A DNA stretch of 11,042 nt. Source: a virus (lineage: Duplodnaviria > Heunggongvirae > Uroviricota > Caudoviricetes). A program made the position numbers and the translations under genes. The stretch lies in the IMG/VR virus record IMGVR_UViG_2740892442_000010; one strand, given 5' to 3'. Below, piece by piece: positions 1 through 11,042 of the stretch. The notes under the pieces were generated by a model. It did no database searches, was not told the DNA's origin, and saw only the letters and a list, made by a program, of their open reading frames with translations. Each line of letters begins with the position of its first letter. The first letter of the stretch is position 1.

Positions 1-282
1 ATGTCTGCCAGCACCCTAATTTCTATTGCAGAACAGGTAGAAGATGTTATGGGGGGCGAGCACTGGTCATTGCACGATCTGCGCAGAACGTGCAAAACAA
101 AAATGGCTGAACTTGGAGTAGCACCTCATGTTTCGGAGAAAATTCTCGGGCATAAGCTCACGGGGATGCTGGCTGTTTATGACCAGTATGACTACATCCC
201 CGAGCAGCAGGACGCAGCAGAATTATGGGCTAAGAAAATTCAAGAGTGTTCGGAAATCAATCCTTTATCTTTGCAAAACTGA
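1..282 (+). CDS. int: Tyrosine recombinase (phage integrase), C-terminal catalytic portion only; 5' end lies left of the window
   Basis: ORF runs from the first base to a stop at 280-282. Translation carries the C-terminal tyrosine-recombinase signature in order: HDLRRT (His-x-x-Arg), LGHK (His), VYDQYDY (candidate catalytic Tyr). The Met at position 1 is internal, not the true start. Confidence 0.8.
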   Translation: MSASTLISIAEQVEDVMGGEHWSLHDLRRTCKTKMAELGVAPHVSEKILGHKLTGMLAVYDQYDYIPEQQDAAELWAKKIQECSEINPLSLQN

Positions 283-469
283 ATAACTTCCTTGTAGCGA
301 AAGAGGCGCCGCCTTTCGGTGGGTGGATTTCTTCCACTTCCCGAGGGAATGGTGTCCCTGATTGCTCCCACTGTTTACGCTTCCGGTAAAAAGTAGTTCT
401 GGAGATACCACCAAGCATCTCCTGAACACGCTCGCGGTTTATTAGAATCGGCTGAATATTGATTGTCAT
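257..469 (-). CDS. Small HTH DNA-binding protein, AlpA/Xis-like (putative excisionase or transcriptional regulator)
   Basis: 70-aa ORF with GGAG 11 nt upstream of the ATG at 469. The segment LGGISRTTFYRKRK...FP resembles the AlpA/excisionase-type helix-turn-helix (L-x-G-[IL]-S-R-[ST]-T-[IF]-Y-R). The 3' end overlaps the integrase stop by 26 nt in convergent orientation, so the C-terminal residues are uncertain. Confidence 0.5.
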   Translation of the reverse strand: MTINIQPILINRERVQEMLGGISRTTFYRKRKQWEQSGTPFPREVEEIHPPKGGASFATRKLFSFAKIKD

Positions 470-590
470 TTGTATGGTTTCTCCATAAAGAAATAAACCG
501 TTCAGTGGCGGTTATTGTCGGTTGCGGTAGATCTGGCGATCTTGAGAAACTGTCAGGCCTCATCGAGTGTGAGGCTGTATGATTCCATAG

Positions 591-935
591 TTAGTCCTTG
601 CGTAGTTCTCTGATTCTTCTGTAAGTCTCTGGTGCTTTGTTTCCGTGTATCTTCATTTCAGACTTCAACAGAGCAACGAGAGAATCCCATTCGTTGAGGA
701 TGCCTTTGAATGCCGGAACGCGCTTTGCAACCTTGTCGAATGAATCTCTGATTTCTGGAATCTGCTCAACAAGTGCAACGCATCGTCGGAAATCGGCTGC
801 GTCATGTGGAGCGCCGAAGTGATGACCATAGATATTCTTTTTCAGTCCACATGCGATTGAGGCAAGAGTTGCGCTACTGATGCCGACATCGCCAGTCGTT
901 TGCCATTTCAAAATCTTCATAGCCAAATCTGACAT
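591..935 (-). CDS. Hypothetical protein, 114 aa from the ATG at 935 (six-frame ORF extends to 962)
   Basis: Minus-strand ORF. The internal ATG at 933-935 is preceded by GGAGA (complement of 942-946) at about 7 nt spacing; the upstream ATG at 960-962 sits inside the loop of a GC hairpin and has no RBS. No recognisable motif. Confidence 0.5.
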   Translation of the reverse strand: MSDLAMKILKWQTTGDVGISSATLASIACGLKKNIYGHHFGAPHDAADFRRCVALVEQIPEIRDSFDKVAKRVPAFKGILNEWDSLVALLKSEMKIHGNKAPETYRRIRELRKD

Positions 936-946
936 TTCTTGTCTCC

Positions 947-969
947 AATAAAAAACCGCCATCAGGCGG
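947..969 (-). terminator. Putative rho-independent terminator on the minus strand (short GC stem plus U-tract)
   Basis: Minus-strand read: CCGCC-TGAT-GGCGG (5-bp all-GC stem, 4-nt loop; + coordinates 956-969) followed immediately by TTTTTTATT (complement of 947-955). The stem is short, so strength is uncertain. Confidence 0.4.
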
Positions 970-1035
970 CTTAGTGTTCTTTCAGTTCTTCAATTCGAAT
1001 ATTGGTTACATTGTTTTCATATATGAATAAATAAT

Positions 1036-1215
1036 TTAGCTTTTTTCGTTGCTTCCGCGTTCTTTATTATTTTTACTAAACTCGTTTTTACCGCGCATTC
1101 CAAATGCGTCTTTAGAGTTGTTGTATCCGCAATCACTGCACACATAATCTCCAGACCATCCACGCCTTGTTTTTTCTTTTGCAATATTTCCAGAACCGCA
1201 TTTTGGACAAGACAT
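1036..1215 (-). CDS. Small zinc-ribbon protein (CxxC-x19-CxxC) with Lys/Asn-rich C-terminal tail
   Basis: ATG at 1213-1215 preceded by GGAGG with 7-nt spacer (minus strand ggaggtagtgatATG). Product MSCPKCGSGN...YVCSDCGYNN has two CxxC pairs typical of a zinc ribbon. The longer ORF to 1248 lacks an RBS. The overlapping ORF 1017..1256 in another frame is rejected. Confidence 0.6.
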   Translation of the reverse strand: MSCPKCGSGNIAKEKTRRGWSGDYVCSDCGYNNSKDAFGMRGKNEFSKNNKERGSNEKS

Positions 1216-1268
1216 ATCACTACCTCCAAAGCATGAGTGAGATGACAACGTAACATTGATTGGAAATT

Positions 1269-1282
1269 AACAATATATTGTT
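1269..1282. promoter_or_regulatory. Perfect 14-bp palindrome AACAATATATTGTT upstream of the zinc-ribbon gene (candidate operator)
   Basis: AACAATA/TATTGTT is exactly self-complementary. It lies in the 96-bp intergenic gap between the Ead stop (1312) and the zinc-ribbon start (1215), 54-67 nt upstream of that ATG. Confidence 0.3.
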
Positions 1283-1311
1283 GATGTAAAAGATATGTAT
1301 AAGATTCGCTA

Positions 1312-2217
1312 TCAGAGCGGCGGTTCTGGTAGCGGCATCCAGTGGGTTACATTGCGGCTCTGCGTTTCGAAGAACTCCTCACCATTGCGGACAACATCAA
1401 AAAACTCACCGTCTCGATATTGCGCATAAAGAACGAATGCGCCATCACATAAAATAATTACGTGCTGACCATCATCTGGCATTCGCTCACTACAGCTTAT
1501 CCAACCATCCGGAGTTACCGGATAGTTGCCAGACAGCGCATTCTGCAACCGTTCCAGCTTCACGTATTCCTGAACTCTGTTTCCGTCGCACGTCTGAAGC
1601 CATTGAGCAGCCTTTTGCGCATCAGTGTGAAAGGCACAAGTGCGACCGTCATCAAATTGCATTTTGTAGAGGTCAGCAACCTGTTCAAACTCCGTTTGTG
1701 GCAAGTTGTAAGTTTGGCTTACAGGTTTGGCACCATGAAGCATGGCGGCACGACAGGCGTTCCAGCCTCTCACCTCTGCAATAGCTGCAACCGCATCAAC
1801 CGCATACATGCTAAGAGGGTTCGGCATTGGTTTTTCTTCCGGTACTACTGGCGATTGCTGTTTAACTTCTAAATCAGCAATTCTGTCAACTACGGCATCT
1901 ACTGCATCTGAAAAACTGAAACAGTTACTCCATTCCGGCCTGTTCCCGGTTGCTGCAAAATACATATCAGCTAAAGCATACTCAGCATGGTCACGCTCGT
2001 TGATGAGTTGCTCTTCGCTTTTCTCCAGTTCAGCAATACGCTTACTCCCATCCGAGATAACGCCCTCGTAATACTCACGCTGCTCGTTGAGTTTTGATTC
2101 AAGTTCACCGAACTTACGGACAAGATATTCAGCGTTTGTTTCGTTAACCTTTAAATCTCGTGGGATGCATTTACCTTTCAGAAATCCATCCATCTCAATT
2201 AGTGACATTTGTTTCAT
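1312..2217 (-). CDS. Ead/Ea22-like early-region protein with C-terminal DUF551-type domain
   Basis: Long minus-strand ORF. The C-terminus ...[12 protein letters not shown] matches the characteristic DUF551 ending found in lambdoid-phage ea-region proteins. Start assigned to the ATG at 2215-2217, which overlaps the upstream stop as ATGA (translational coupling); the ORF track begins at a GTG at 2235. Confidence 0.7.
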
Positions 2218-2396
2218 TTCTTCCCACTCCGCCACATCGCATTCAGATATTTGTTTTGATTTACTGATGGAAAAGAATTTCTCTTAAGCAATTCCTCTCT
2301 CGATGGCATTGGCTTTACGCGTTGGCGAATAATCATTTCTGCCGGAAGAATGCCGGGATTGTATGCAAGTCCTCTCATGGTAAATTCCTCAGTCAT
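2214..2396 (-). CDS. Small hypothetical protein (about 60 aa), translationally coupled within the ea operon
   Basis: The ATG at 2394-2396 overlaps the stop of the upstream ORF (minus strand aATGacTGA), and its own stop overlaps the Ead start (ATGA). No recognisable motif; the start could instead be the next Met (MRGL...). Confidence 0.35.
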
Positions 2397-2685
2397 TACT
2401 GATAGCGCCATAGCGTGAGCGGTAATTACGCAGGCGCGGGTCGATATATTCAGGGAAGTGGGTATATGTGGCTTTGCGGAATGGTCGGATTGATGTCTGG
2501 TAAATTCGCTCTCGTTCTTCTTTCTCTGCAAGCCATATACAGTGGCGAAATTCCTTTTCCTCTTTCGTTTCCTGCGGTAGCGACATTATCCGATCGTAGT
2601 TTTTTCTGAATTTATCCAGCACCTCCGATACGGAATTGCCGGAACAGCGGCGCGGGTCATCCGCACCATACAGAGGCGCTGGCAT
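2389..2685 (-). CDS. Hypothetical protein, 98 aa
   Basis: Minus-strand ORF with AGGAGAA 4 nt upstream of the ATG at 2685, starting 16 nt after the stop of the exonuclease-like ORF. No recognisable domain. Confidence 0.5.
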
Positions 2686-2701
2686 GGTTTTCTCCTGTTG
2701 A

Positions 2702-3199
2702 TTATTTAGCTAACTTTTTCCAGATCGCTGAAACGTATTTGGCTTGGTGAATGGCATCATCAAGCGCGTTGTGGCGAGTTCCTTTGAATGGCATATCTCG
2801 CTTAGGGTCGAATCCTATTACCTTCCCAAGTTCGACGATTGTTCTTACGTCGCGGTCATTCCACCACTGCCACGGAACTGGCTGCCCTGTCAGCGAATAA
2901 CTGTTGCGGAGAATAACGCAGTCAAATGATGCTCCATTCCCCCAAACCTGAACGAATTTGTGGTTGGCGTTCTTTATGATGAATTCAGATAACCATGAAA
3001 GAGCCGTTGAAAGCTCTTGAGTGTTGCTGGTTAGCGATTTTCTGGCTTCTTCACTCTGTTCCATCCACCATAAAATCGTTGAAGCGTCAGGACGCGCCCG
3101 ATATCGCATTGATGACTCAAGCGAGATATTTACCGAGAACTCTTCTCCTGTTTCTCCGGTATATGAATTTACGCCATACAGCAAACAGCGTGAGTTCAT
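2702..3199 (-). CDS. DEDD-type 3'-5' exonuclease-like protein (DnaQ/Rv2179c-like motifs II and III present); probably 5'-truncated at the deletion junction
   Basis: Translation contains WGNGASFD (Exo II-like, FD) and [13 protein letters not shown] (Exo III-like, H-x4-D), but no N-terminal D-x-E motif is visible. None of the candidate starts (3199, 3109, 3064) has a convincing RBS. The first about 11 codons are simply the reverse complement of the terminase-like fragment that begins near 3165. Confidence 0.45.
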
Positions 3200-3761
3200 C
3201 GACGCCGGGCATGACTATCCAGAGCGATGTTTTATGGCTGGTAACCAGCTTGGTAAGTCATTTACTGGTGCTGCTGAAGTCGCGTTTCACCTTACCGGGC
3301 GTTACGCGAACAAGCAACTGGTGATGATGGGGCTGAAGAAACCAGAAACACCTGAAGAGATGGAGATGGTACAGCAGGCTCAACAGCAGCCGCAGCAGCC
3401 ATCAGCAGAGCAAATTCAGGCGCAGGGTATCCTTCTGCAAGGTCAGGCTGAATTGCTCAAGGCAGAGAACCAACAGGCGCAGATTCAGGTTGAAGCCGCC
3501 AAGGTTGAAGCCCAAAACCAACTCAACGCCGCGAAGATTGCAGAAATCTTCAACAATATGGACCTCGACAAGCAGGCAGAACTGCGTGAGTACCTCAAGC
3601 TAGTAGGTCAATTCCAGCAACAGCGCAGCAAAGATGCTCGTGCTAACGCTGAGCTGCTTCTTAAAGATGCAGACCAGACTCATTCACAACGCATGGATTT
3701 CGCGAATCTTATGCGTCAAGTTCAAATCCCCTCCGGCGGAGTAGCCGAGACACCTCAATAA
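3021..3761 (+). pseudogene. Deletion-scar chimera: terminase large subunit N-terminal fragment (about 3165-3305) fused in frame to portal protein C-terminal fragment (about 3305-3761), P22-like
   Basis: Residues [47 protein letters not shown] carry a P-loop ([AG]-x4-G-K-[ST]: AGNQLGKS) typical of a terminase ATPase N-terminus. The sequence then switches abruptly to a Gln/Ala/Glu-rich helical segment (QQAQQQPQQ...[40 protein letters not shown]...) that I recall as the C-terminal barrel of the P22 portal gp1. The P22 order is 3-2-1-8-5 and scaffold/coat genes follow directly. An out-of-frame ATG at 3163-3165 (tatATGAATTTACG) suggests the native start was ATG-GAA-TTT (MEFTPY) with a 1-bp loss. 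Confidence 0.6.
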
Positions 3762-3774
3762 GAGAGAGTTAATC

Positions 3775-4686
3775 ATGGACCAAACCACCGACATTCAGGC
3801 TTCTGAAGAATTAACCCTGCCCGGCAATCATGCAGCGGCATCTGCTGATGGCTTAGTTGTCGATAATGCCAACGACAACGCAGGTCAGGAAGAAGGCTTC
3901 GAGATTGTCCTGAAAGACGATGAGAAACCAAAACAAGACCCGGCAACTAATGCTGAATTTGCCCGTCGCCGCATCGAACGCAAACGCCAGCGTGAGCTTG
4001 AGCAGCAGATGGAAGCGGTTAAGCGTGGAGAGTTGCCGGAGCACCTGCGGGTGAACCCTGAGTTACCAAAACAACCAGACCCTAACGATTATCTTTCCGA
4101 AGATGCACTGGCTAAGTACGACTATGACCAGAGCCGCGCACTGGCTGCCTTCCAGCAGGCAAACAGTGAATGGCAGATCAAGGCTATGGACGCACGAAGC
4201 CAGGCTGTCGCCGAGCAGGGTCGCAAAACTCAGGAGTTCACCCAGCAATCAGCGCAATACGTCGAGGCAGCCCGTAAGCACTACGACGCAGCGGAAAAGC
4301 TCAATATCCCTGACTATCAGGAGAAAGAGGATGCATTCATGCAACTGGTGCCGCCAGCAGTCGGTGCCGACATCATGCGCCTCTTCCCGGAGAAATCCGC
4401 TGCTCTCATGTATCACCTTGGTGCTAATCCTGAAAAAACACGCCAGTTGCTGGCGATGGACGGGCAATCCGCGCTGATTGAACTCACTCGACTGTCAGAA
4501 CGTTTAACTCTCAAGCCTCGAGCCAAGCCTGTTTCAGAAGCCCCGTTACCTGATGAACCAATTCAGGGACACGCTGTTGCTGCAAATATCTCTGCGATTG
4601 AAAAGCAGATGGAAGCGGCAGCAAACAAAAGGGATGTAGAGACGTACCGCAAGCTCAAGGCGCAACTGAATAAAGGAATTCGATAA
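3775..4686 (+). CDS. Phage scaffolding protein (P22 gp8-like), apparently intact, 303 aa
   Basis: RBS-like AGAGAGAG about 7 nt upstream of the ATG at 3775. Same length as P22 gp8, and the N-terminal region ([29 protein letters not shown]) and C-terminal basic coat-binding region ([15 protein letters not shown]) match my recollection of that protein. Stop overlaps the coat start as TAATG. Confidence 0.85.
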
Positions 4687-5732
4687 TGGCATTAAATGAA
4701 GGTCAACTGGTCACGTATGCTCTGGATGAAATCATCGAAACCGTCCAGAATCTGACGCCAATGGCGTCCAAAGTGACAAAATACACCCCTCCGGCAGAAT
4801 CCATGCGGCGTTCAAGCAACACCGTGTGGATGCCTGTTGAGCAGGAAGCGCCAACCCAGACTGGCTGGGATTTAACTGGCAACGCAACTGGGATTCTGGA
4901 ACTCTCCGTGAAATGCAACATGGGCGATCCGGATAACGATTTCTTCGAGCTTCGTGCAGATGACCTGCGTGATGAGCGTTCTTACCGTCGCCGCATCCAG
5001 GCATCCGCTAAAAAACTGGCGAATAACATTGAGTCAGCAATTGCCAAACAGGCAACTGAAATGGGCTCACTTGTTGTTCACGATACCCGCGCAATTGGTC
5101 CATCTACTGGCCTGTCTGGCTGGGATTTTGTGTCTGATGCAGAGCGCCTGATGTTCTCCCGCGAACTCAACCGCGACATGGGCATCAGTTACTTCCTGAA
5201 CCCTGACGATTACCGCAAAGCAGGCCGCAACCTGGTAGATGGTGACATCTTCGGTCGCGTTCCTGAAGAAGCGTATCGCAACGGTACTATTCAGCGTCAG
5301 ATTGCTGGCTTTGATGAAATTCTTCGCTCACCGAAACTTCCGGCAGTTACCAAGTCAACCGCTACTGGTGTAACTGTTTCTGGTGCGCAGAAGTTTAAGC
5401 CGCAGGCATACACCCTTGATACCGATGGTAACAAAGAGAACGTCGACAACCGTGTTGCAACGGTGACCGTATCCTCCACCACCGGATTTAAGCGCGGCGA
5501 CAAAATCAGTTTCACTGGTGTGAAATTCCTGTCTCAGATGGCGAAGAACGTGCTAACTGATGATGCGACTTTCTCAATCACCCGTGTGATCGATGGTACT
5601 CACATCGAAATCACGCCGAAACCGATTGCACTGGATGACGCGTCACTGACAAAAGAAGAGAAGGCTTACGCTAACGTAAACACCTCTCTTGCTGATACCA
5701 CTCCGGTAAACGTTCTGAACACCAGCCTATGA
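4686..5732 (+). CDS. Phage major coat protein (P22 gp5-like), 3'-truncated at 348 aa versus about 430 aa; likely nonfunctional remnant
   Basis: N-terminus [19 protein letters not shown]... and internal segments ([68 protein letters not shown]) match my recollection of the P22 coat protein. The ORF ends after ...[20 protein letters not shown], well short of full length, and the downstream P22 genes (4, 10, 26, 14, 7, 20, 16) are absent. Confidence 0.8.
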
Positions 5733-5823
5733 AAGAGCGATAAATAACGCTGCGAATGCCATCAGACCGCTGTTTGCTACTGAGGCAACACAGCAGTAAC
5801 GTATGGGAAATTGGATTCAATCG

Positions 5824-6213
5824 CTAACATTTTCTTTTTACTTTTCCAACAAAAGCTTTGGTTGAATCCATATTTCTATAACCGGAAATGGTTTTTGACA
5901 TTAAAACTGTTCCAGTAGGATGTATTACCCATGAGTCGATAACGCGTTGAGTTTCGCCATTCGCGCCGATTCCTATGATGGAGTTTTTAGACAATGCTTT
6001 GTAAGCCATGCCGCCCGCATCTGTCCCAGAATATGTGATGCTGGCATCTTCACCGTTTGTCTTAATGATGAATGTTCCACTAAAACCATCTTCTTCCGGA
6101 TGGAAATTATTTCGTTCTGAATAGCTTATTCCGCGCATATCTCCAACGACCCAGCACTCTGCTGTAGCCCCAAAAGATATGAATAAGAACATAGCAGTAA
6201 GAAATTGCTTCAC
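5824..6213 (-). CDS. Exported protein of unknown function with N-terminal signal peptide (moron-like cargo)
   Basis: Strong RBS AAGGAGG with 5-nt spacer before a GTG start at 6211-6213. N-terminus MKQFLTAMFLFISFGATA/ECW has a hydrophobic core and an A-x-A-type cleavage site. No recognisable catalytic motif. Divergent from the adjacent lipoprotein gene. Confidence 0.6.
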   Translation of the reverse strand: MKQFLTAMFLFISFGATAECWVVGDMRGISYSERNNFHPEEDGFSGTFIIKTNGEDASITYSGTDAGGMAYKALSKNSIIGIGANGETQRVIDSWVIHPTGTVLMSKTISGYRNMDSTKAFVGKVKRKC

Positions 6214-6330
6214 GCCAACCTCCTTAGTTTTGAGCAGGATACCATGAAAAAAGTAAACATCTTTTGCCTACTTCACATTTGAATGGTTTGTCATTAGGAT
6301 GTTTCCGGTTTTTTAAATATGGAAATTGAT

Positions 6331-6750
6331 ATGAAGAGGATTATTGGCGTCGTTGCTGGCGCTATATTGTTATCTGGGTGCGCAACTATTGTTGGTGACG
6401 AAACGCAGCTTGTGCAAGTGAACAGCAATCCTTCCGGTGCGAGCTTTAAGGTAAAAGACGAATCAGGCGTGATTGTTGCGCAAGGTAAGACCCCACAAGG
6501 AGTAACTCTTGCCAAGTCAGATGGTAGTTATTTTGGCAAAAAGAGCTACCAGATCACTATGGAAAAGGATGGGTACGAACCAGTTACCCTGCCAATCAAA
6601 GCCAATGCTAATGGCTGGTATATTGGTGGAAACCTTGTGTTTGGTGGGTTAATTGGTTGGCTTGCTGTAGATCCTTTTAATGGTGGGATGTATACCTTGA
6701 AGCCAAAAGAGGCAAACGCATCTCTTATACCATCAACAAAGCAAGACTAA
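6331..6750 (+). CDS. Lipoprotein (lipobox LLSGC) with PEGA-like beta domain and Gly-rich C-terminal segment
   Basis: MKRIIGVVAGAILLSG-C is a canonical signal II peptide with the lipobox Cys. PSGASFKVKDESGVIVAQGKTPQGVTL resembles the PEGA motif; the C-terminal segment GWYIGGNLVFGGLIGWLAVDPFNGGMY is Gly-zipper-like. An upstream in-frame ATG at 6319 is a possible alternative start but has no RBS. Followed by a strong terminator. Confidence 0.7.
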   Translation: MKRIIGVVAGAILLSGCATIVGDETQLVQVNSNPSGASFKVKDESGVIVAQGKTPQGVTLAKSDGSYFGKKSYQITMEKDGYEPVTLPIKANANGWYIGGNLVFGGLIGWLAVDPFNGGMYTLKPKEANASLIPSTKQD

Positions 6751-6758
6751 TAAATAGG

Positions 6759-6781
6759 ACCCACCTTCAGGTGGGTTTTTT
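6759..6781 (+). terminator. Rho-independent terminator (likely bidirectional) between the lipoprotein gene and mnt
   Basis: ACCCACC-TTCA-GGTGGGT (7-bp stem, 4-nt loop) followed by TTTTTT on the + strand, 9 nt after the lipoprotein stop. The last three codons of the convergent mnt ORF lie inside the 3' half of the stem. Confidence 0.65.
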
Positions 6782-7018
6782 GTACAAATCCTTCAGCGTA
6801 TCAAACACCATCTTCCTAACAAGTTCGGACTGCTCATCAGCGATGCGTTCTGCATCGTCTCGATAGTCTGAAATTTTGGATGGCTTTGATACAGCATCAG
6901 TCACTATCTGAACTAATTCTGAATTAAGAGAGCGGCCATTGGATTTGGCTCGCTGTTTTAGTTTTTCCTTTAATTCGTAAAGTAGCCGCAGATTAAATTG
7001 CGGGTCATCTCTTCCCAT
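6767..7018 (-). CDS. mnt: Mnt repressor (ribbon-helix-helix, Arc/MetJ family), P22 Mnt homolog, 83 aa
   Basis: Translation MGRDDPQFNLRLLYELKEKLKQRAKSNGRSLNSELVQIV...DAERIADEQSELVRKMVFDTLKDLYKKPT is near-colinear with P22 Mnt as I recall it (MARDDPHFNFRMPMEVREKLKFRAEANGRSMNSELLQIV...KKMVFDTLKDLYKKTT), with the same length and the RHH beta-strand FNLR motif. GAGG lies 8 nt upstream of the ATG at 7018. Confidence 0.85.
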   Translation of the reverse strand: MGRDDPQFNLRLLYELKEKLKQRAKSNGRSLNSELVQIVTDAVSKPSKISDYRDDAERIADEQSELVRKMVFDTLKDLYKKPT

Positions 7019-7081
7019 TCTTGATGCCTCGCTTTTGTGAGTGGAGCGGCATCTTATTATCTGCTGGTTGCATCCTCAATA

Positions 7082-7096
7082 AGACCACTGTGGTCT
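7082..7096. promoter_or_regulatory. Perfect 15-bp palindrome AGACCAC-T-GTGGTCT, candidate Mnt operator
   Basis: Exact inverted repeat 64 bp upstream of the mnt start codon. It resembles in style the symmetric P22 mnt operator half-sites (GTCCAC/GTGGAC type, recalled). A plausible leftward promoter for mnt (minus strand TTGAGG-17 nt-TAAGAT, + coordinates 7051-7079) sits immediately beside it. Confidence 0.5.
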
Positions 7097-7290
7097 CTTT
7101 ATTTGATTAATAATGCATCACTGCGGCCACGCTGCAGCGATTCCTTGTATCTGGAGCAAATTAAATGACAGATATTATAAATAGGAATTGTTATTTAATA
7201 ATATTTGAAAATGAAAATCATGGACGATAGGAATAAAAGTAGTACTTGTTATTTTTAAGTGACGCATTAAACGCATAAAGCATATGTCTG

Positions 7291-7319
7291 TTGATCAAGA
7301 TTCTTGCTTGTTGTAAAAT
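7291..7319 (+). promoter_or_regulatory. Candidate sigma70-type promoter upstream of the tailspike gene
   Basis: TTGATC (7291-7296), 17-nt spacer, TAAAAT (7314-7319); would give a leader of about 118 nt to the tailspike ATG. The region is AT-rich, so chance matches are likely. Confidence 0.25.
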
Positions 7320-7443
7320 AATTGTTTTGTTCATGTTGCATAGTTTTAAAGTGAATAGAAGATTATTTTTCAAAACAATTGCATCTTTGTCTGCAGTCAT
7401 TCCGTTTTCTTCAATATCTAAATTTTCAAACAGGATGACTAAT

Positions 7444-10176
7444 ATGCCTGATATAACTCCAAATGTTGTAATTGGGATGCCTTCTCAACTCTTCACTATG
7501 GCTCGTTCTTTTAAAGCCGTAGCTAATGGAAAAATTTATATCGGTAAAATTGACACTGACCCTGTAAATCCTGAAAACCAGATTCAGGTTTATGTAGAGA
7601 ATGAAGATGGTTCTCACGTTCCTGTTTCGCAACCAATCGTTATCAATGCTGCTGGATATCCTGTATATAACGGACAGATTGCCAAATTCGTTACTGTGAA
7701 AGGACACTCTATGGCTGTGTACGATGCTTATGGTACGCAGCAGTTCTATTTTCCGAATGTGCTGAAGTATGACCCGGATCAGTTACGGCAGCAATTAGAA
7801 GATCCTGATGGTGCTAAAAAATACCCTGAATTACAGATTGCACGATGGCGGGATGATAAAGACGTTCGCGGGTGGGGGGCGGATGACTCTGGGAATAGAG
7901 ATTCAACACAGGCTTTTCTTGACGCCGCATCTAGCGCAGGAAATAGTGGTTTGGTTCATGTGCCTTCTGGTGAGTTTATAGTTGATGCATCGAAAATAGA
8001 TATTTCACGCTTCTCCGGTGATGGTGTTCTAATCAGTAATGGTGTTCGCATTTCTGTTAATCCGCCGATGCAAAGTTTCTCCATTGGACAAAGAAAACTT
8101 GCGACCCTGAATTTTGGTGATGATATCAATGCGCCAACTATATATGCGAATGCACAAAATGCATTGCAGGGAATAGCTTGTGTAAGGCATGAAGGTATTG
8201 AGAAGGTTTTTATCACTCAACAGGTTGGAGGTTCTAACTGGGGAACGGACACCCTCACAAGGATCAGTGAGTGGCACTATACAAGCGATGGTTCAACTCT
8301 TTATGTTGTGACATTTACAGAGCCATTGCCTCTTGGTCACGGTTCAGATCTTTCTGCCACAATAGAGAACGGTGAACTATATCTGTTTACAACAACAATT
8401 GCTGAGACTGGTTCCTCTCTAGGAGGGAAGGGGTATTCAAAGACAAAATGGAAAGGGGCATCAACATCTGCTGAAGATATAACTCATTACCGAGTATTTG
8501 GTGAGCCGGGTGATAATAATCTGATTAACCTTGCGCAGCGGGCAAGTATTTGTGTATCTAATGATGGGCGATATGTCATATTAATTGCGACATCAAACGC
8601 TGGGACTGGCCGCTTTTTATACGTATATGATCGCAAAGAAGTGGAATCTTCTTCTAACCCAATGAAAGTTAGACCGATTAATGGTCCTGTTCCACTTGTC
8701 CGTGGTAAAGGTCAGTATGGTGCAACACTTCAGGGTATTACATCAGATAGCAGATATATTTACACAATTTGGGGTGGCGTTCCTGCAAGATGCGTAAGGA
8801 CAGTACAGATTTATGATATGGGTGGTACGCTAATACGTTCATTTCCTGTATCACTTGCCGCATCACTTTATACAGAGACTCAGTTAAATGGTTCTGACTC
8901 TAAAATCGGAGTTCCGGTTAGCTTTGAGCCTGAAGGGCTGGCAATAAGAGGTGATGAACTTGTCTGTGGTGCTATGGATGTATGGAAAAGCGCAGGGGAT
9001 GTTGTAAGCCATCGTGGTAAAAATTGGGTAAGTATTGTTACTGGTGATAACAAGGGAAATCTTCCGACAAACAGGTCTTATTGGTTAAAAACATCGCTTG
9101 CAGCGACAAGTGGTGAATGGGATTCAGGCGCAACATATAAATCAGGTGATTATACTCGCAGAAATAAGCATCTGTTTGGAATAGCAAACCTGTCTGATAT
9201 TCTTGGCAACCATCCAGTGCATGGTGCAGAATCCGATCCGTATACCGGAACCGCGCATCAATATTATGCTGGAACTGATATCGCCTTTAACCGTGAGCAC
9301 GGTTCATTTACTATTGCGATATTTGACGAAGCCATTGGAGAGTATACCAAATCCCTCGAGTTGAATTATGGAAATAACCTTAACCTGTTTGATACAGATT
9401 ACGGACATGACAATAATTCATGGGTAAGTACGAAAGCAGTATTCGACTCAAACTTTCGAGGTATGCAGTTCCGTTCTAAAGATGGGAATACTGCGGGTGG
9501 TGCTTATATTGATATCCATGCTGCTGATTGTCCATCTGCGGCTGGTGAGTTGATACTTGCCTCTACAGATGGAGGTGTCGTCAGACTTAAGCAGGGGAAT
9601 GTAACAGTATTTTCTGCGACTAAAGATACTACATCGACATGGGCGACGACGACATTAAGGCCAACAACTGATAACCAGGTATCACTTGGAAGGTCCGTTA
9701 ACCGCTTTTCTCAGGTCTACGCAGGGACTGCAACTATAAATACATCTGATGCAACAGAGAAAACGGAAGTCAGAACTCTTTCCGATAAAGAGCAGGCGGT
9801 TGGGTTAGCTCTTGTTGATGAAATTGGTTTTTATCAATGGCTTGATAGTGTAAAAAATAAGGGAGCTGATGCCAGACTTCATGCCGGACTTACGGTGCAA
9901 CGGGCAATGGAAATATTCAGAGAGAATGGACTTGATCCATTTAAATACGGAGCGATCTGCTATGACAGATGGGATGCATATACAGATACAGATCCAGCTG
10001 TTTATGATGATGAAGGTAACCTTGTTCGTGAGGCTATAACTATTACGCATGAAGCAGGAGAACGCTATGCATTCAGAAATGATGAATTACAGTATCTAAT
10101 GATTGCTGCATTAGGTATACGTCAGAAAAATATTATAAAGAGGATTGAAGAACTGGAAAATAAGCTTGCAAATTAA
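7444..10176 (+). CDS. Phage tailspike protein, mosaic: P22-type N-terminal head-binding domain, divergent receptor-binding/enzymatic body, C-terminal intramolecular-chaperone-like (peptidase S74-type) domain; 910 aa
   Basis: Start set at the ATG at 7444, with AGGA 8 nt upstream; the ORF track's upstream extension from 7291 is AT-rich and non-protein-like. The first about 115 aa ([59 protein letters not shown]...NVLKYDPDQ) closely match the P22 gp9 head-binding domain ([34 protein letters not shown]..., recalled), and similarity ends right after KYDPDQ. The C-terminal about 143 aa from Ser at 9745-9747 ([10 protein letters not shown]...) fit the S-D-x-x-x-K pattern of autocleaving chaperone domains. 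Confidence 0.85.
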
Positions 10177-10331: not shown

Positions 10332-11042
10332 TTATTGTTTTTCTTTTGTTAGGTTCCAATATTCACTTGTGGTTTTTATGGAGTCCTTATTAGGCTTTAC
10401 ATAAGGTTTATGTATGGAGAGATGAGGTCTTTCCCAGGCAATGTCTTTTTTTATTACTCTTGCTGGAACTCCTGCTGCAATAGAGTTATTTGGGACGTGT
10501 CCTTTAACAACAGCTGCATAGCCAATAACACTACCACTTTCGATTTCTGCACCACCAAGTATTGCCGCTCGGCGGCCAACCCAGACATGACTTCCAATAT
10601 AAATAGATTTTGGCATATTTATACGTTCACCTGTTACTACACTAAAAATAGGGTGGGAGTCATCAGTTTTAACTTCATTTCCACTTGAAAACATGCAGTC
10701 ATCGCCAATAATTATGCTTGAGTTTTCTACAGCAGAAATCATACCTTTACCAGTGCAAGTGAAATCAGAGCCTATTTTTATGGAGGAATTCTCACCCACT
10801 CTTATATGGGCTTGTATACCTTTGTTTGCGATATGGCATGGGCCAATTTCAAAATACCCATTGTTGCAGTCAAAATATATCTCAAAATATTTTAATGATG
10901 CATCTTTATGAATGATAAGTTTATTATTAGATCCTCTAAACTGAATTAGTTTGACGTCACAACTACCTTCGTACTGGATCTCATTACCCATTTCATCAGA
11001 ATACTTCTCTGCTTTTGTTAAAACAACTTTTCTAATTTTCAT
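10332..11042 (-). CDS. Hexapeptide-repeat (left-handed beta-helix) acetyltransferase; start coincides with the window edge, so the 5' end may extend beyond
   Basis: The C-terminal half IGSHVWVGRRAAILGGAEIESGSVIGYAAVVKGHVPNNSIAAGVPARVIKK shows the [LIV]-G-x4 hexapeptide periodicity and the AAGVPARVI ending typical of the LacA/Maa/NodL/WbbJ-like O-acetyltransferase family. Visibly AT-rich coding sequence. The ATG at 11040-11042 is the last codon in the window. Confidence 0.75.
   Translation of the reverse strand: MKIRKVVLTKAEKYSDEMGNEIQYEGSCDVKLIQFRGSNNKLIIHKDASLKYFEIYFDCNNGYFEIGPCHIANKGIQAHIRVGENSSIKIGSDFTCTGKGMISAVENSSIIIGDDCMFSSGNEVKTDDSHPIFSVVTGERINMPKSIYIGSHVWVGRRAAILGGAEIESGSVIGYAAVVKGHVPNNSIAAGVPARVIKKDIAWERPHLSIHKPYVKPNKDSIKTTSEYWNLTKEKQ

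What the first reader, a model, noticed from the sequence alone, without database searches (positions are those of the whole stretch)
6767..7443. Orphan Mnt repressor with perfect palindromic operator; arc and ant deleted, leaving the tailspike gene downstream
In P22 the immI region is mnt, then the divergent Pant/Omnt, then arc, ant and gene 9. Here mnt is intact with a nearby plausible promoter, and an exact 15-bp palindrome (AGACCACTGTGGTCT, 7082-7096) sits where the operator should be. No arc or ant ORF exists in the following 350 bp of AT-rich DNA before the tailspike start. A retained repressor without its antirepressor target could confer immunity-like interference against incoming P22-like phages, or could now regulate tailspike expression.
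Basis: partly seen in the sequence, partly recalled or inferred. Interest (0 to 1): 0.55.

Follow-up and report, generated by a model that had tools for sequence, protein, structure and literature searches.

The report
Orphan Mnt repressor in dead prophage
This is a genuine phage Mnt repressor gene with its own operator and promoter but no antirepressor to control, an arrangement already described in several P22-like phages, and here it sits in a decayed E. coli prophage, so it is largely ordinary.

Summary
6767-7018(-) encodes a true Mnt (PDB 1MNT E=2e-31). AGACCAC-T-GTGGTCT (7082-7096) aligns base-for-base with the P22 mnt operator and abuts a conserved leftward promoter. No arc or ant remnant exists anywhere in the window.

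This mnt-only layout was not created here. It is the published configuration of phages ST64T/L, ST104, SE1 and Gally. All carry the same Mnt class (Gln6 instead of P22's His6) and the same operator arms, with a freely varying central base. In intact phages mnt is under strong purifying selection (median dN/dS 0.09).

The window itself is a prophage remnant with an IS1-split integrase and truncated terminase and coat genes. Its mnt allele carries three derived amino-acid changes against one synonymous change.

The AT-rich DNA is not a deletion scar. It is a 266-bp non-coding cassette inserted 13 nt into the old tailspike gene. The old start survives as a short upstream ORF. Other phages carry HNH homing-endonuclease genes at the same point.

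No rightward promoter overlaps the operator, so tailspike control by Mnt is unsupported. P22 itself has a different operator. Three contigs from other hosts do carry this operator in front of arc-ant.

The parts
6319..6750 (+). PEGA-like lipoprotein moron gene upstream of mnt (homologue of Gally GALLYPH_14 and epsilon34 gene 15)
   Evidence: The ORF has a signal/lipobox-like N-terminus and a weak Pfam PEGA match. Its Gally homologue is strongly expressed from the prophage.
6756..6779 (.). Bidirectional intrinsic terminator shared by the lipoprotein gene and mnt
   Evidence: The terminator scan finds it. The RNA fold is -14.2 kcal/mol. The same element is annotated as a terminator in epsilon34.
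6767..7018 (-). mnt: 83-aa ribbon-helix-helix repressor with a C-terminal tetramerisation domain, Gln6 specificity class. This allele carries derived changes P13L, G51D and K68R.
7051..7079 (-). Pmnt-like promoter: -35 TTGAGG (7079..7074), 17-nt spacer, -10 TAAGAT (7056..7051). The predicted transcription start is near 7044.
   Evidence: It is positionally homologous to the annotated P22 Pmnt. The hexamers are conserved in 45 unique contexts.
7082..7096 (.). Mnt operator (Omnt), AGACCAC-T-GTGGTCT, centred about -45 from the predicted Pmnt start. It is the only such site in the window.
7112..7164 (+). Conserved pre-gene-9 boundary sequence (bsq1-like), including the old gene-9 Shine-Dalgarno GGAG at 7153-7156
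   Evidence: It aligns with P22 16155-16203, Gally, SE1, epsilon34 and CUS-3, where it is annotated bsq1.
7165..7230 (+). Vestigial start of the ancestral tailspike gene. Its first 13 nt are ATGACAGATATTA. It now forms a 21-codon upstream ORF that runs into the insert.
7178..7443 (+). 266-bp AT-rich (GC 0.27) non-coding cassette that travels with this tailspike subfamily. It is found in phage JEP4 and 44 of 5426 E. coli genomes.
7291..7319 (+). Promoter-like site TTGATC-17-TAAAAT facing the tailspike gene. The hexamers are conserved and the spacer sequence varies among close variants.
   Evidence: It is not conserved in the more distant CFSAN064035 variant.
7444..10176 (+). Tailspike gene (910 aa) with a replaced N-terminus (MPDITPNVV...)
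   Evidence: Pfam Head_binding 1.8e-65 and Peptidase_S74. RefSeq annotates the CDS.

Best explanation
The region is an mnt-Pmnt-Omnt cassette of the 'mnt-only ant moron' type found in P22-like (Lederbergvirus) phages. It was inherited in that form and now lies in a decayed E. coli prophage. Shown: the gene encodes a full Mnt. The palindrome occupies the position of the P22 operator, two base pairs from the -35 of the leftward mnt promoter. It is the only such site in the genomes examined. Operator arms and Mnt residue 6 covary (Gln6 with AGACCAC, His6 with GGTCCAC). Inferred: an Mnt tetramer binds the palindrome, one dimer per 7-bp arm, and thereby sets the activity of its own promoter (autoregulation). 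P22's rightward Pant, the Arc operator, arc, sar and ant are all gone, so the repressor has no other target in cis. The tailspike gene is not under its control. That gene is separated from the operator by the old gene-9 leader, a vestigial start and a 266-bp inserted leader with its own promoter-like site. In intact relatives the cassette is kept by selection for a function that has not been established. In this remnant, which has no C2 repressor, no late promoter and no antirepressor, the allele is probably drifting.
For: Identity: 1MNT E=2e-31, 1QEY E=7e-12, Pfam Arc plus Repressor_Mnt. Operator homology and geometry. Significance of the palindrome. Covariation: about 114 loci (45 unique contexts) with the RDDPQFNLR strand carry AGACCAC-N-GTGGTCT or a single-mismatch variant 63-64 nt from the mnt ATG, with a central base of A, T, G or C. 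The 13 loci of the P22/epsilon34 kind (arc-ant present) with RDDPHFNFR carry GGTCCAC-N-GTGGACC; the five CUS-3-like His6 loci lack that operator. The published P22 Mnt half-site is GTGGACC, with position 7 weakly specified (PMC2726951). The arm here, GTGGTCT, differs at positions 5 and 7, and position 7 also varies naturally (T/G/A) in this class. There is one operator per genome in Gally, ST64T and P22. The Pmnt hexamers are conserved, the Pant-equivalent hexamers lack the key -10 bases, and conservation collapses immediately to the right of the operator. No arc or ant remnant is found. The same layout occurs in Gally, SE1 and ST64T and is described in the literature. Selection: median pairwise dN/dS is 0.09 over 189 pairs, but the window allele differs from its nearest relative by 3 non-synonymous changes and 1 synonymous change, including an otherwise invariant Gly51. 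Remnant status: IS1-split integrase, terminase fragment, coat protein covering 344 of 423 profile positions, and no portal, injection or immunity genes.
Against: No binding or transcription data exist for this allele. The direction of autoregulation is inferred only from P22. My recollection of Vershon et al. 1987 is that Mnt favours Pmnt, but I could not read that paper here. The Pmnt match to consensus is modest (8/12), and the scan tool did not flag it. The three derived substitutions might abolish function, in which case nothing is regulated. In Gally, mnt and tailspike RNA rise together in macrophages while upstream late genes stay silent. Some local rightward transcription into the tailspike gene therefore exists, and a link to Mnt is not excluded. 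The case for relaxed selection rests on only four substitutions.
Confidence: 0.72

Rival explanations
1. Trans-immunity. The orphan Mnt is kept because it represses the Pant-arc-ant operon of superinfecting or co-resident phages that carry the same operator. This would protect resident repressors from antirepressor-triggered induction.
For: mnt is under strong purifying selection in phages that have no ant. The operator is conserved to its last base although nothing conserved follows it. Three viral contigs (L089, L142, L153) carry an Mnt-like protein with the same RDDPQFNLR strand, the identical operator, and arc plus ant immediately downstream.
Against: Those three contigs are not from E. 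coli. No E. coli genome matches their mnt-operator-arc part, and the nearest phage is an Erwinia phage. The ant-bearing E. coli and Salmonella P22-like phages examined use other operators: P22 and epsilon34 use GGTCCAC, and CUS-3, Kapi1 and JEP4 use unrelated sites. Phage L, which has this Mnt class, is reported to lack functional immI (PMC8022706). A cis operator is not needed for trans repression. In this window there is no resident C2 repressor to protect.
Confidence: 0.2
2. Tailspike control. Mnt bound at 7082-7096 represses, or acts as a roadblock to, rightward transcription into the tailspike gene. That transcription could be read-through from the upstream moron, late transcripts, or a residual Pant.
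For: In the ancestral layout the operator lies only 68 bp upstream of the gene-9 ATG, with no terminator between them. In Gally the tailspike is transcribed from the prophage independently of the upstream late genes and together with mnt (log2 fold change 4.4 and 5.3). Villafane et al. suggest that the ant moron, and possibly Mnt and Arc, modulate late read-through into gene 9 (PMC2629481).
Against: The Pant-equivalent hexamers are GCGGCA/TGCATC here and TCGGCA with TGCATC, TATATC or TGTATC elsewhere, lacking the invariant -10 T6. No rightward consensus promoter is found in Gally or ST64T. Co-induction of mnt and tailspike is the opposite of simple repression. In this window a 266-bp insert with its own promoter-like site separates the operator from the gene. 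Deletion of mnt in Gally gave no phenotype in the one assay reported.
Confidence: 0.15
3. The palindrome is an RNA hairpin acting as an intrinsic terminator for rightward transcripts, not a protein-binding site.
For: The terminator scan flags AGACCACTGTGGTCT followed by CTTTATTTGA here and in Gally.
Against: The hairpin is weak (-6.4 kcal/mol, 3-nt loop) compared with -14.2 for the true terminator nearby. The T-tract is absent in ST64T and SE1, where the site is not flagged. All natural arm variants are single-sided with no compensatory changes. The arm sequence tracks the neighbouring Mnt recognition strand, even when the rest of the protein differs. The site is homologous to the experimentally defined P22 operator.
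Confidence: 0.03
4. Recent local deletion. arc and ant were deleted in this particular prophage as part of its decay, and the AT-rich DNA is the scar.
For: The prophage has suffered several large deletions and an IS1 insertion.
Against: Fully functional phages (Gally, vB_EcoP-720R6, SE1, ST160, ST64T) have the same operator-to-boundary-sequence junction without arc or ant. The Gally spacer is near-identical to the window up to 7177. The AT-rich segment also occurs in the viable phage JEP4, downstream of a different mnt and operator.
Confidence: 0.02

Closest known systems
Phage P22 immunity I region (mnt, Pmnt/Pant, Omnt, Oarc, arc, sar, ant)
   Same: The Mnt protein is homologous (73% identity, both domains). 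The operator sits at the same position relative to mnt and to the -35 of Pmnt. The flanking CTCAATA motif is shared. The 7-1-7 symmetric site architecture is the same.
   Different: There is no Pant, Oarc, arc, sar, ant or ant terminator. The operator arms are AGACCAC instead of GGTCCAC. The recognition strand is PQFNLR (Gln6, Leu9) instead of PHFNFR.
The 'mnt-only ant moron' of Salmonella phages ST64T / L / ST104 / SE1 / ST160 and E. coli phage Gally
   Same: The Mnt class is the same (68-96% identity) and the operator arms are identical. The Pmnt hexamer positions match. The operator is followed directly by the pre-gene-9 boundary sequence. The arrangement is described in PMC2629481 and PMC8022706. 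Gally mnt has been deleted and its transcription measured (PMC9928086).
   Different: The window adds a 266-bp insert after codon 4 of the old tailspike gene. It lies in a defective prophage. Its Mnt carries three private substitutions.
P22 Arc repressor
   Same: Both are ribbon-helix-helix proteins (1ARQ E=4e-5). The window Mnt has exactly the Arc beta-strand sequence PQFNLR.
   Different: Arc has no C-terminal tetramerisation domain. It binds a different 21-bp operator overlapping Pant and Pmnt, which is absent here.
Free-standing HNH homing-endonuclease cassettes at the 5' end of the tailspike gene (phage Kapi1, IMG/VR contig L075)
   Same: The insertion junction is the same, after ATGACAGAYATTA(C). 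The old start is retained and a new tailspike start follows the cassette.
   Different: The window cassette has no endonuclease ORF and no detectable similarity to those genes. Its only ORF is broken by 1- and 5-bp indels in relatives.

Membership tests
Mnt repressor (Pfam PF03869 Arc + PF11423 Repressor_Mnt; PDB 1MNT/1QEY) | N-terminal ribbon-helix-helix DNA-binding domain | tested here: met
   PF03869 E=5e-20 over residues 3-51. 1MNT E=2e-31 over residues 3-77.
Mnt repressor (Pfam PF03869 Arc + PF11423 Repressor_Mnt; PDB 1MNT/1QEY) | C-terminal coiled-coil tetramerisation domain | tested here: met
   PF11423 E=2e-17 over residues 53-80. 1QEY E=7e-12. Caveat: G51D changes an otherwise invariant glycine at the domain junction.
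Mnt repressor (Pfam PF03869 Arc + PF11423 Repressor_Mnt; PDB 1MNT/1QEY) | Base-contacting residues Arg2, His6, Asn8, Arg10 of P22 Mnt (own knowledge of Knight & Sauer work, which was not readable here) | tested here: inconclusive
   Arg2, Asn8 and Arg10 are kept and His6 is replaced by Gln. The change covaries with the operator arms across more than 100 loci, so it reads as a specificity variant rather than a loss.
Mnt repressor (Pfam PF03869 Arc + PF11423 Repressor_Mnt; PDB 1MNT/1QEY) | Specific binding of a tetramer to a symmetric operator next to its gene | not testable with these tools
   The site is present and conserved. Binding needs EMSA or footprinting.
Complete P22-type immI region | Rightward Pant promoter overlapped by Omnt | tested here: not met
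   The equivalent hexamers are GCGGCA / TGCATC, and no + strand promoter is flagged near the operator.
Complete P22-type immI region | arc and ant genes downstream of the operator | tested here: not met
   tblastn with two Arc proteins and Ant at E up to 10 returns only noise in 7019-7443 and in the whole window.
Complete P22-type immI region | sar antisense RNA | tested here: not met
   There is no Rfam hit other than terminator noise in 6600-7600. The P22 sar region has no counterpart in the alignment.
mnt-only ant moron (ST64T/L, SE1, Gally type) | mnt, Pmnt and Omnt followed directly by the gene-9 boundary sequence and gene-9 start | tested here: met
   Alignment with Gally and SE1. ST64T has the same Mnt class and operator.
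Intrinsic terminator | Stable GC-rich hairpin with a conserved U-tract | tested here: not met
   The fold is -6.4 kcal/mol. The T-tract is absent in ST64T and SE1.
Homing-endonuclease cassette (for 7178-7443) | Endonuclease ORF (HNH, GIY-YIG or LAGLIDADG) | tested here: not met
   The 60-aa ORF has no Pfam hit. Its only match among 5.8 billion proteins is one near-identical hypothetical protein. tblastx shows no similarity to the Kapi1 or L075 HNH genes.

The most novel reading that the evidence does not exclude
Orphan Gln6-class Mnt cassettes are a selected, portable 'anti-antirepressor' immunity module. They persist in phages, and even in prophage remnants, because they silence the ant operons of incoming phages that share the AGACCAC-N-GTGGTCT operator. 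The His6/GGTCCAC and Gln6/AGACCAC pairs would then be natural incompatible immunity specificities, created mainly by one protein residue and one base pair per half-site. A second, independent novelty would be that the 5' end of the P22-like tailspike gene is a homing-endonuclease target, and that 7178-7443 is a decayed cassette that now supplies a late-operon-independent tailspike promoter.
Probability: 0.15. Interest if true: 0.5.

Novelty: new member of a known kind. Interest (0 to 1): 0.22.

Why it matters
The practical value is mainly in annotation and interpretation. The 'Arc family DNA-binding protein' annotated next to tailspike genes in more than a thousand E. coli genomes is an Mnt with a defined single operator, not a toxin-antitoxin or partition component. 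The Gln6/AGACCAC versus His6/GGTCCAC covariation gives a natural, testable specificity pair for the ribbon-helix-helix recognition code. It also explains why phage L-type lysogens would not repress P22 ant. Strong purifying selection on mnt in phages without ant shows that the open question raised for phage L (new function or decaying relic?) has an answer for intact phages: it is functional. This particular copy nevertheless looks like a relic. None of this changes current understanding of immI.

Tried and rejected
(1) A genome-contig scan for AATAAGACCACNGTGGTC returned 30 chance hits in unrelated taxa and no Enterobacterales representative, so it was uninformative.

(2) An Rfam search of 6600-7600 returned only a sub-threshold terminator-like hit.

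(3) The 60-aa minus-strand ORF at 7218-7400 was rejected as a gene. It has no Pfam family. Its only database match is one near-identical hypothetical protein. Related copies carry 1-bp and 5-bp indels inside it.

(4) The insert could not be shown to be a decayed copy of the Kapi1 or L075 HNH genes, because blastn and tblastx find no similarity. It could still be a remnant of an unknown cassette.

(5) The 43-aa + strand ORF at 7037-7168 was rejected as an arc substitute. It has no family hit and no similarity to Arc.

(6) I looked for additional operators that would reveal a second Mnt target. None occurs at up to 3 mismatches in Gally or up to 2 in ST64T and the window.

(7) I tried to read the primary Sauer and Stormo papers on Mnt contacts (PMC30133, PMC286564, PMC55749). 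They are not held. Statements about Arg2/His6/Asn8/Arg10 contacts and about Mnt stimulating Pmnt therefore rest on my own knowledge.

(8) A search for E. coli prophages carrying the L142-type mnt-operator-arc-ant module found only a distal ant fragment matching in 6 genomes.
Full report
**What the window is.** The 1.4-kb stretch around the finding is 100% identical to the chromosome of E. coli TUM10008. It lies in a P22-like (Lederbergvirus) prophage next to thrS.

The prophage is a wreck. Its integrase is split by IS1. Early-left genes (anti-RecBCD, a 3'-5' exonuclease) abut a fragment of the large terminase. A scaffold gene follows, and then a coat gene that stops at position 344 of the 423-position Pfam profile. 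The element then jumps to a hypothetical gene, a lipoprotein gene, mnt, the tailspike and an acyltransferase. Portal, head-completion, injection, immunity (c2/cro), replication and lysis genes are all missing.

**The observation.** The minus-strand ORF at 6767-7018 encodes 83 residues.
- It matches the solved P22 Mnt N-terminal domain (1MNT, E=2e-31).
- It matches the Mnt C-terminal tetramerisation domain (1QEY, E=7e-12).
- It hits Pfam Arc and Repressor_Mnt above their thresholds.
- Identity to P22 Mnt is 73%.

AGACCACTGTGGTCT lies exactly at 7082-7096. It has two perfect 7-bp arms around a central T. With up to two mismatches it is unique in the window, against 0.02 expected.

An alignment with P22 shows the site is homologous to the annotated mnt operator. 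P22 reads CTCAATA-GGTCCAC-G-GTGGACC and the window reads CTCAATA-AGACCAC-T-GTGGTCT, with no indel back to the mnt start codon.

The hexamers that correspond position-for-position to P22 Pmnt are TTGAGG (7079..7074) and TAAGAT (7056..7051), with a 17-nt spacer. They match consensus at only 8 of 12 positions, so the scan tool did not list them. They are nevertheless conserved as TTGAGG/TTGTGG and TAAGAT/TATGAT in 45 distinct sequence contexts.

No arc or ant remnant exists. tblastn with P22 Arc, a second Arc, and Ant at E up to 10 gives only noise in 7019-7443 and across the window.

**The layout is inherited and already described.** The same structure occurs in viable phages: mnt, then the operator, then the conserved boundary sequence that precedes gene 9, then the tailspike start.
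- These include Gally, vB_EcoP-720R6, SE1, ST160 and ST64T.
- In Gally the spacer is almost identical to the window up to position 7177.
- Villafane et al. [quoted passage not shown]
- The phage L genome paper notes an mnt homologue without sieA, arc or ant. [quoted passage not shown]

It is not an event of this window, and the arrangement is not new.

**A distinct Mnt/operator specificity class.** I fetched 80 relatives of the Mnt gene from IMG/VR and 120 exact occurrences of the palindrome.
- Every Mnt with the N-terminal strand RDDPQFNLR (Gln at mature position 6) lies 63-64 nt from AGACCAC-N-GTGGTCT or a single-mismatch variant of it.
- The central base in this class is A, T, G or C.
- The 13 Mnt genes of the P22/epsilon34 kind, with RDDPHFNFR (His6) and arc-ant downstream, lie next to GGTCCAC-N-GTGGACC. 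The five CUS-3-like His6 copies have lost that operator.
- The rule holds for divergent proteins (59-68% identity). It also holds for proteins with an unrelated C-terminal half (L142, L089), provided the strand is RDDPQFNLR.
- The published optimal P22 half-site is GTGGACC, with position 7 the least specific (PMC2726951). The half-site here is GTGGTCT, differing at positions 5 and 7.
- Position 7 is also the one that varies naturally in this class (T/G/A).
- The Gln6 strand PQFNLR is identical to that of P22 Arc.

It is my inference that residue 6 reads position 5. It fits what I recall of Sauer-lab mutagenesis, but I could not read those papers.

A free central base, invariant arms without compensatory changes, and covariation with a protein strand all argue for a protein-binding site. 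An RNA hairpin is unlikely. It would be weak (-6.4 kcal/mol against -14.2 for the real terminator at 6756-6779), and its T-tract is missing in ST64T and SE1.

**What Mnt can and cannot control here.** Gally, ST64T and P22 each contain exactly one operator, and so does the window.
- The operator's left edge is 2 bp from the -35 of Pmnt. Its centre is about 45 bp upstream of the predicted start.
- The positions that form Pant in P22 read GCGGCA/TGCATC here. In relatives they read TCGGCA with TGCATC, TATATC or TGTATC, lacking the essential last T of the -10.
- No rightward consensus promoter is found in the ancestral-type spacers of Gally or ST64T.
- Sequence conservation collapses immediately to the right of the operator.

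The most economical mechanism is that a tetramer binds the palindrome and modulates only Pmnt.

**Selection on mnt.** In mnt-only phages the gene is clearly maintained. Median pairwise dN/dS is 0.09 over 189 pairs with dS above 0.05. This answers the 'relic or functional' question for intact phages but does not say what the function is.

The only experimental data come from Gally (PMC9928086).
- Gally's Mnt is 96% identical to this one, and its operator arms are the same.
- mnt is at background in stationary LB culture.
- It is induced about 40-fold in macrophages, together with the tailspike and neighbouring genes, while the upstream late genes stay silent.
- A delta-mnt lysogen is viable and shows no survival phenotype.

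*Interference with incoming phages.* P22 and epsilon34 carry the other operator class, so they should escape. The other ant-bearing E. coli P22-like phages I looked at (CUS-3, Kapi1) and JEP4 have unrelated operators. The idea is not empty, however. Three IMG/VR contigs carry the identical operator between a Gln6-strand Mnt-like gene and arc plus ant. They are not from E. coli, and their nearest phage infects Erwinia.

*Tailspike control.* This lacks a promoter to act on. A roadblock to read-through from the strongly expressed upstream moron cannot be excluded, given the Gally transcript pattern. In this remnant there is no resident repressor to protect and no late transcription to tune.

**State of this allele.** It differs from its nearest relatives by three non-synonymous changes (P13L, G51D, K68R) and one synonymous change. 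All three are derived relative to both the class consensus and P22. Gly51 is otherwise invariant across the divergent members. With an omega of 0.09, three or more replacements out of four changes is unlikely (about 4% by my binomial estimate), so relaxed constraint is plausible. The numbers are small.

**What the AT-rich DNA really is.** After the operator come the boundary sequence (7112-7164, equivalent to P22 16155-16203 and annotated bsq1 in CUS-3) and the old gene-9 ribosome-binding site and start, ATGACAGATATTA (7165-7177). Homology to ordinary tailspike genes stops there.

A stretch of 266 bp at 27% GC follows (7178-7443). The real tailspike gene then starts at 7444 with a changed N-terminus, MPDITPNVV. 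The old start survives as a 21-codon upstream ORF (7165-7230).
- The cassette occurs at 90-100% identity in phage JEP4 and in 44 of 5426 complete E. coli genomes, always in front of a tailspike gene.
- Its variants differ by 1-bp and 5-bp indels.
- Its only ORF has no family and it has no Rfam match. It is therefore non-coding.
- A TTGATC-17-TAAAAT site (7291-7319) keeps both hexamers while the spacer sequence varies among close variants. It is not kept in a more distant relative.
- In Kapi1 and in contig L075, two different HNH_3 endonuclease genes sit at exactly the same junction. Each is followed by a new tailspike start.

The 5' end of the tailspike gene thus looks like a recurrent insertion or homing site. 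I found no similarity linking the window's cassette to those endonuclease genes.

**Verdict.** The features are real and correctly located. The module is a member of a known kind, the mnt-only ant moron of P22-like phages. It belongs to a Gln6/AGACCAC specificity class that I have not seen described but which is a modest variation on P22 Mnt. The copy in this window sits in a dead prophage and shows signs of drift. Interest is low.

Noticed in passing
window 7165-7443; L005 (Kapi1) 2440-3075; L075 (IMG/VR 2737471864_000010): The first 13-14 nt of the ancestral tailspike gene (ATGACAGAYATTA[C]) form a recurrent insertion junction. The window and JEP4 carry a 266-bp AT-rich non-coding cassette there. 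Kapi1 and L075 carry two different HNH_3 homing-endonuclease genes on the opposite strand. Each cassette is followed by a new tailspike start codon and an altered N-terminus.
   Followed up: partly
window 7165-7230: The old gene-9 Shine-Dalgarno (GGAG 7153-7156) and ATG survive as a 21-codon upstream ORF (MTDIINRNCYLIIFENENHGR). Its length varies among relatives: a TAA at codon 17 shortens it in some.
   Followed up: partly
window 7291-7319: A sigma-70-like site, TTGATC-17-TAAAAT, faces the tailspike gene. Both hexamers are conserved while the spacer sequence varies among seven close variants. It could give late-operon-independent tailspike expression.
   Followed up: partly
window 1-6300 (locus L001 2700-9000): The element is a defective prophage. 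It has an integrase fragment (IS1 lies just outside the window), early-left genes fused to a terminase fragment, and a coat gene truncated at 344 of 423 profile positions. Portal, injection, immunity, replication and lysis genes are missing.
   Followed up: yes
window 6767-7018: This mnt allele has three derived substitutions (P13L, G51D, K68R) against one synonymous change relative to its nearest relatives, although the gene family has dN/dS of about 0.09. Gly51 is otherwise invariant.
   Followed up: yes
L074-L077 and L006 (CUS-3-like): These loci have tandem mnt genes. The P22-type (His6) copy has lost the GGTCCAC operator. A second mnt-like gene lies next to a different repeated motif (TGCGTACC) upstream of ant.
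   Followed up: no
window 6319-6750: This is a PEGA-like lipoprotein gene. Its Gally homologue (GALLYPH_14) is among the most highly expressed prophage genes (log2 about 10-11) and is further induced in macrophages.
   Followed up: no
L036 (IMG/VR 2541047745_000011): An IS1 element is inserted about 60 nt into the tailspike gene of a Gally-type prophage.
   Followed up: no
window 7444-10176 and 10332-11042: The tailspike has a C-terminal Peptidase_S74 intramolecular-chaperone domain and a weak endosialidase-like segment. A hexapeptide acyltransferase gene, probably for O-antigen modification, follows on the opposite strand at the prophage end next to thrS.
   Followed up: no
L144 (IMG/VR 2597490351_000002): The exact AGACCAC-G-GTGGTCT palindrome also lies between two divergent ribbon-helix-helix genes (strands EDPQMKIRL and DVQMKIRI) with no ant or tailspike nearby. 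It may be another member of this operator class in a different context.
   Followed up: no
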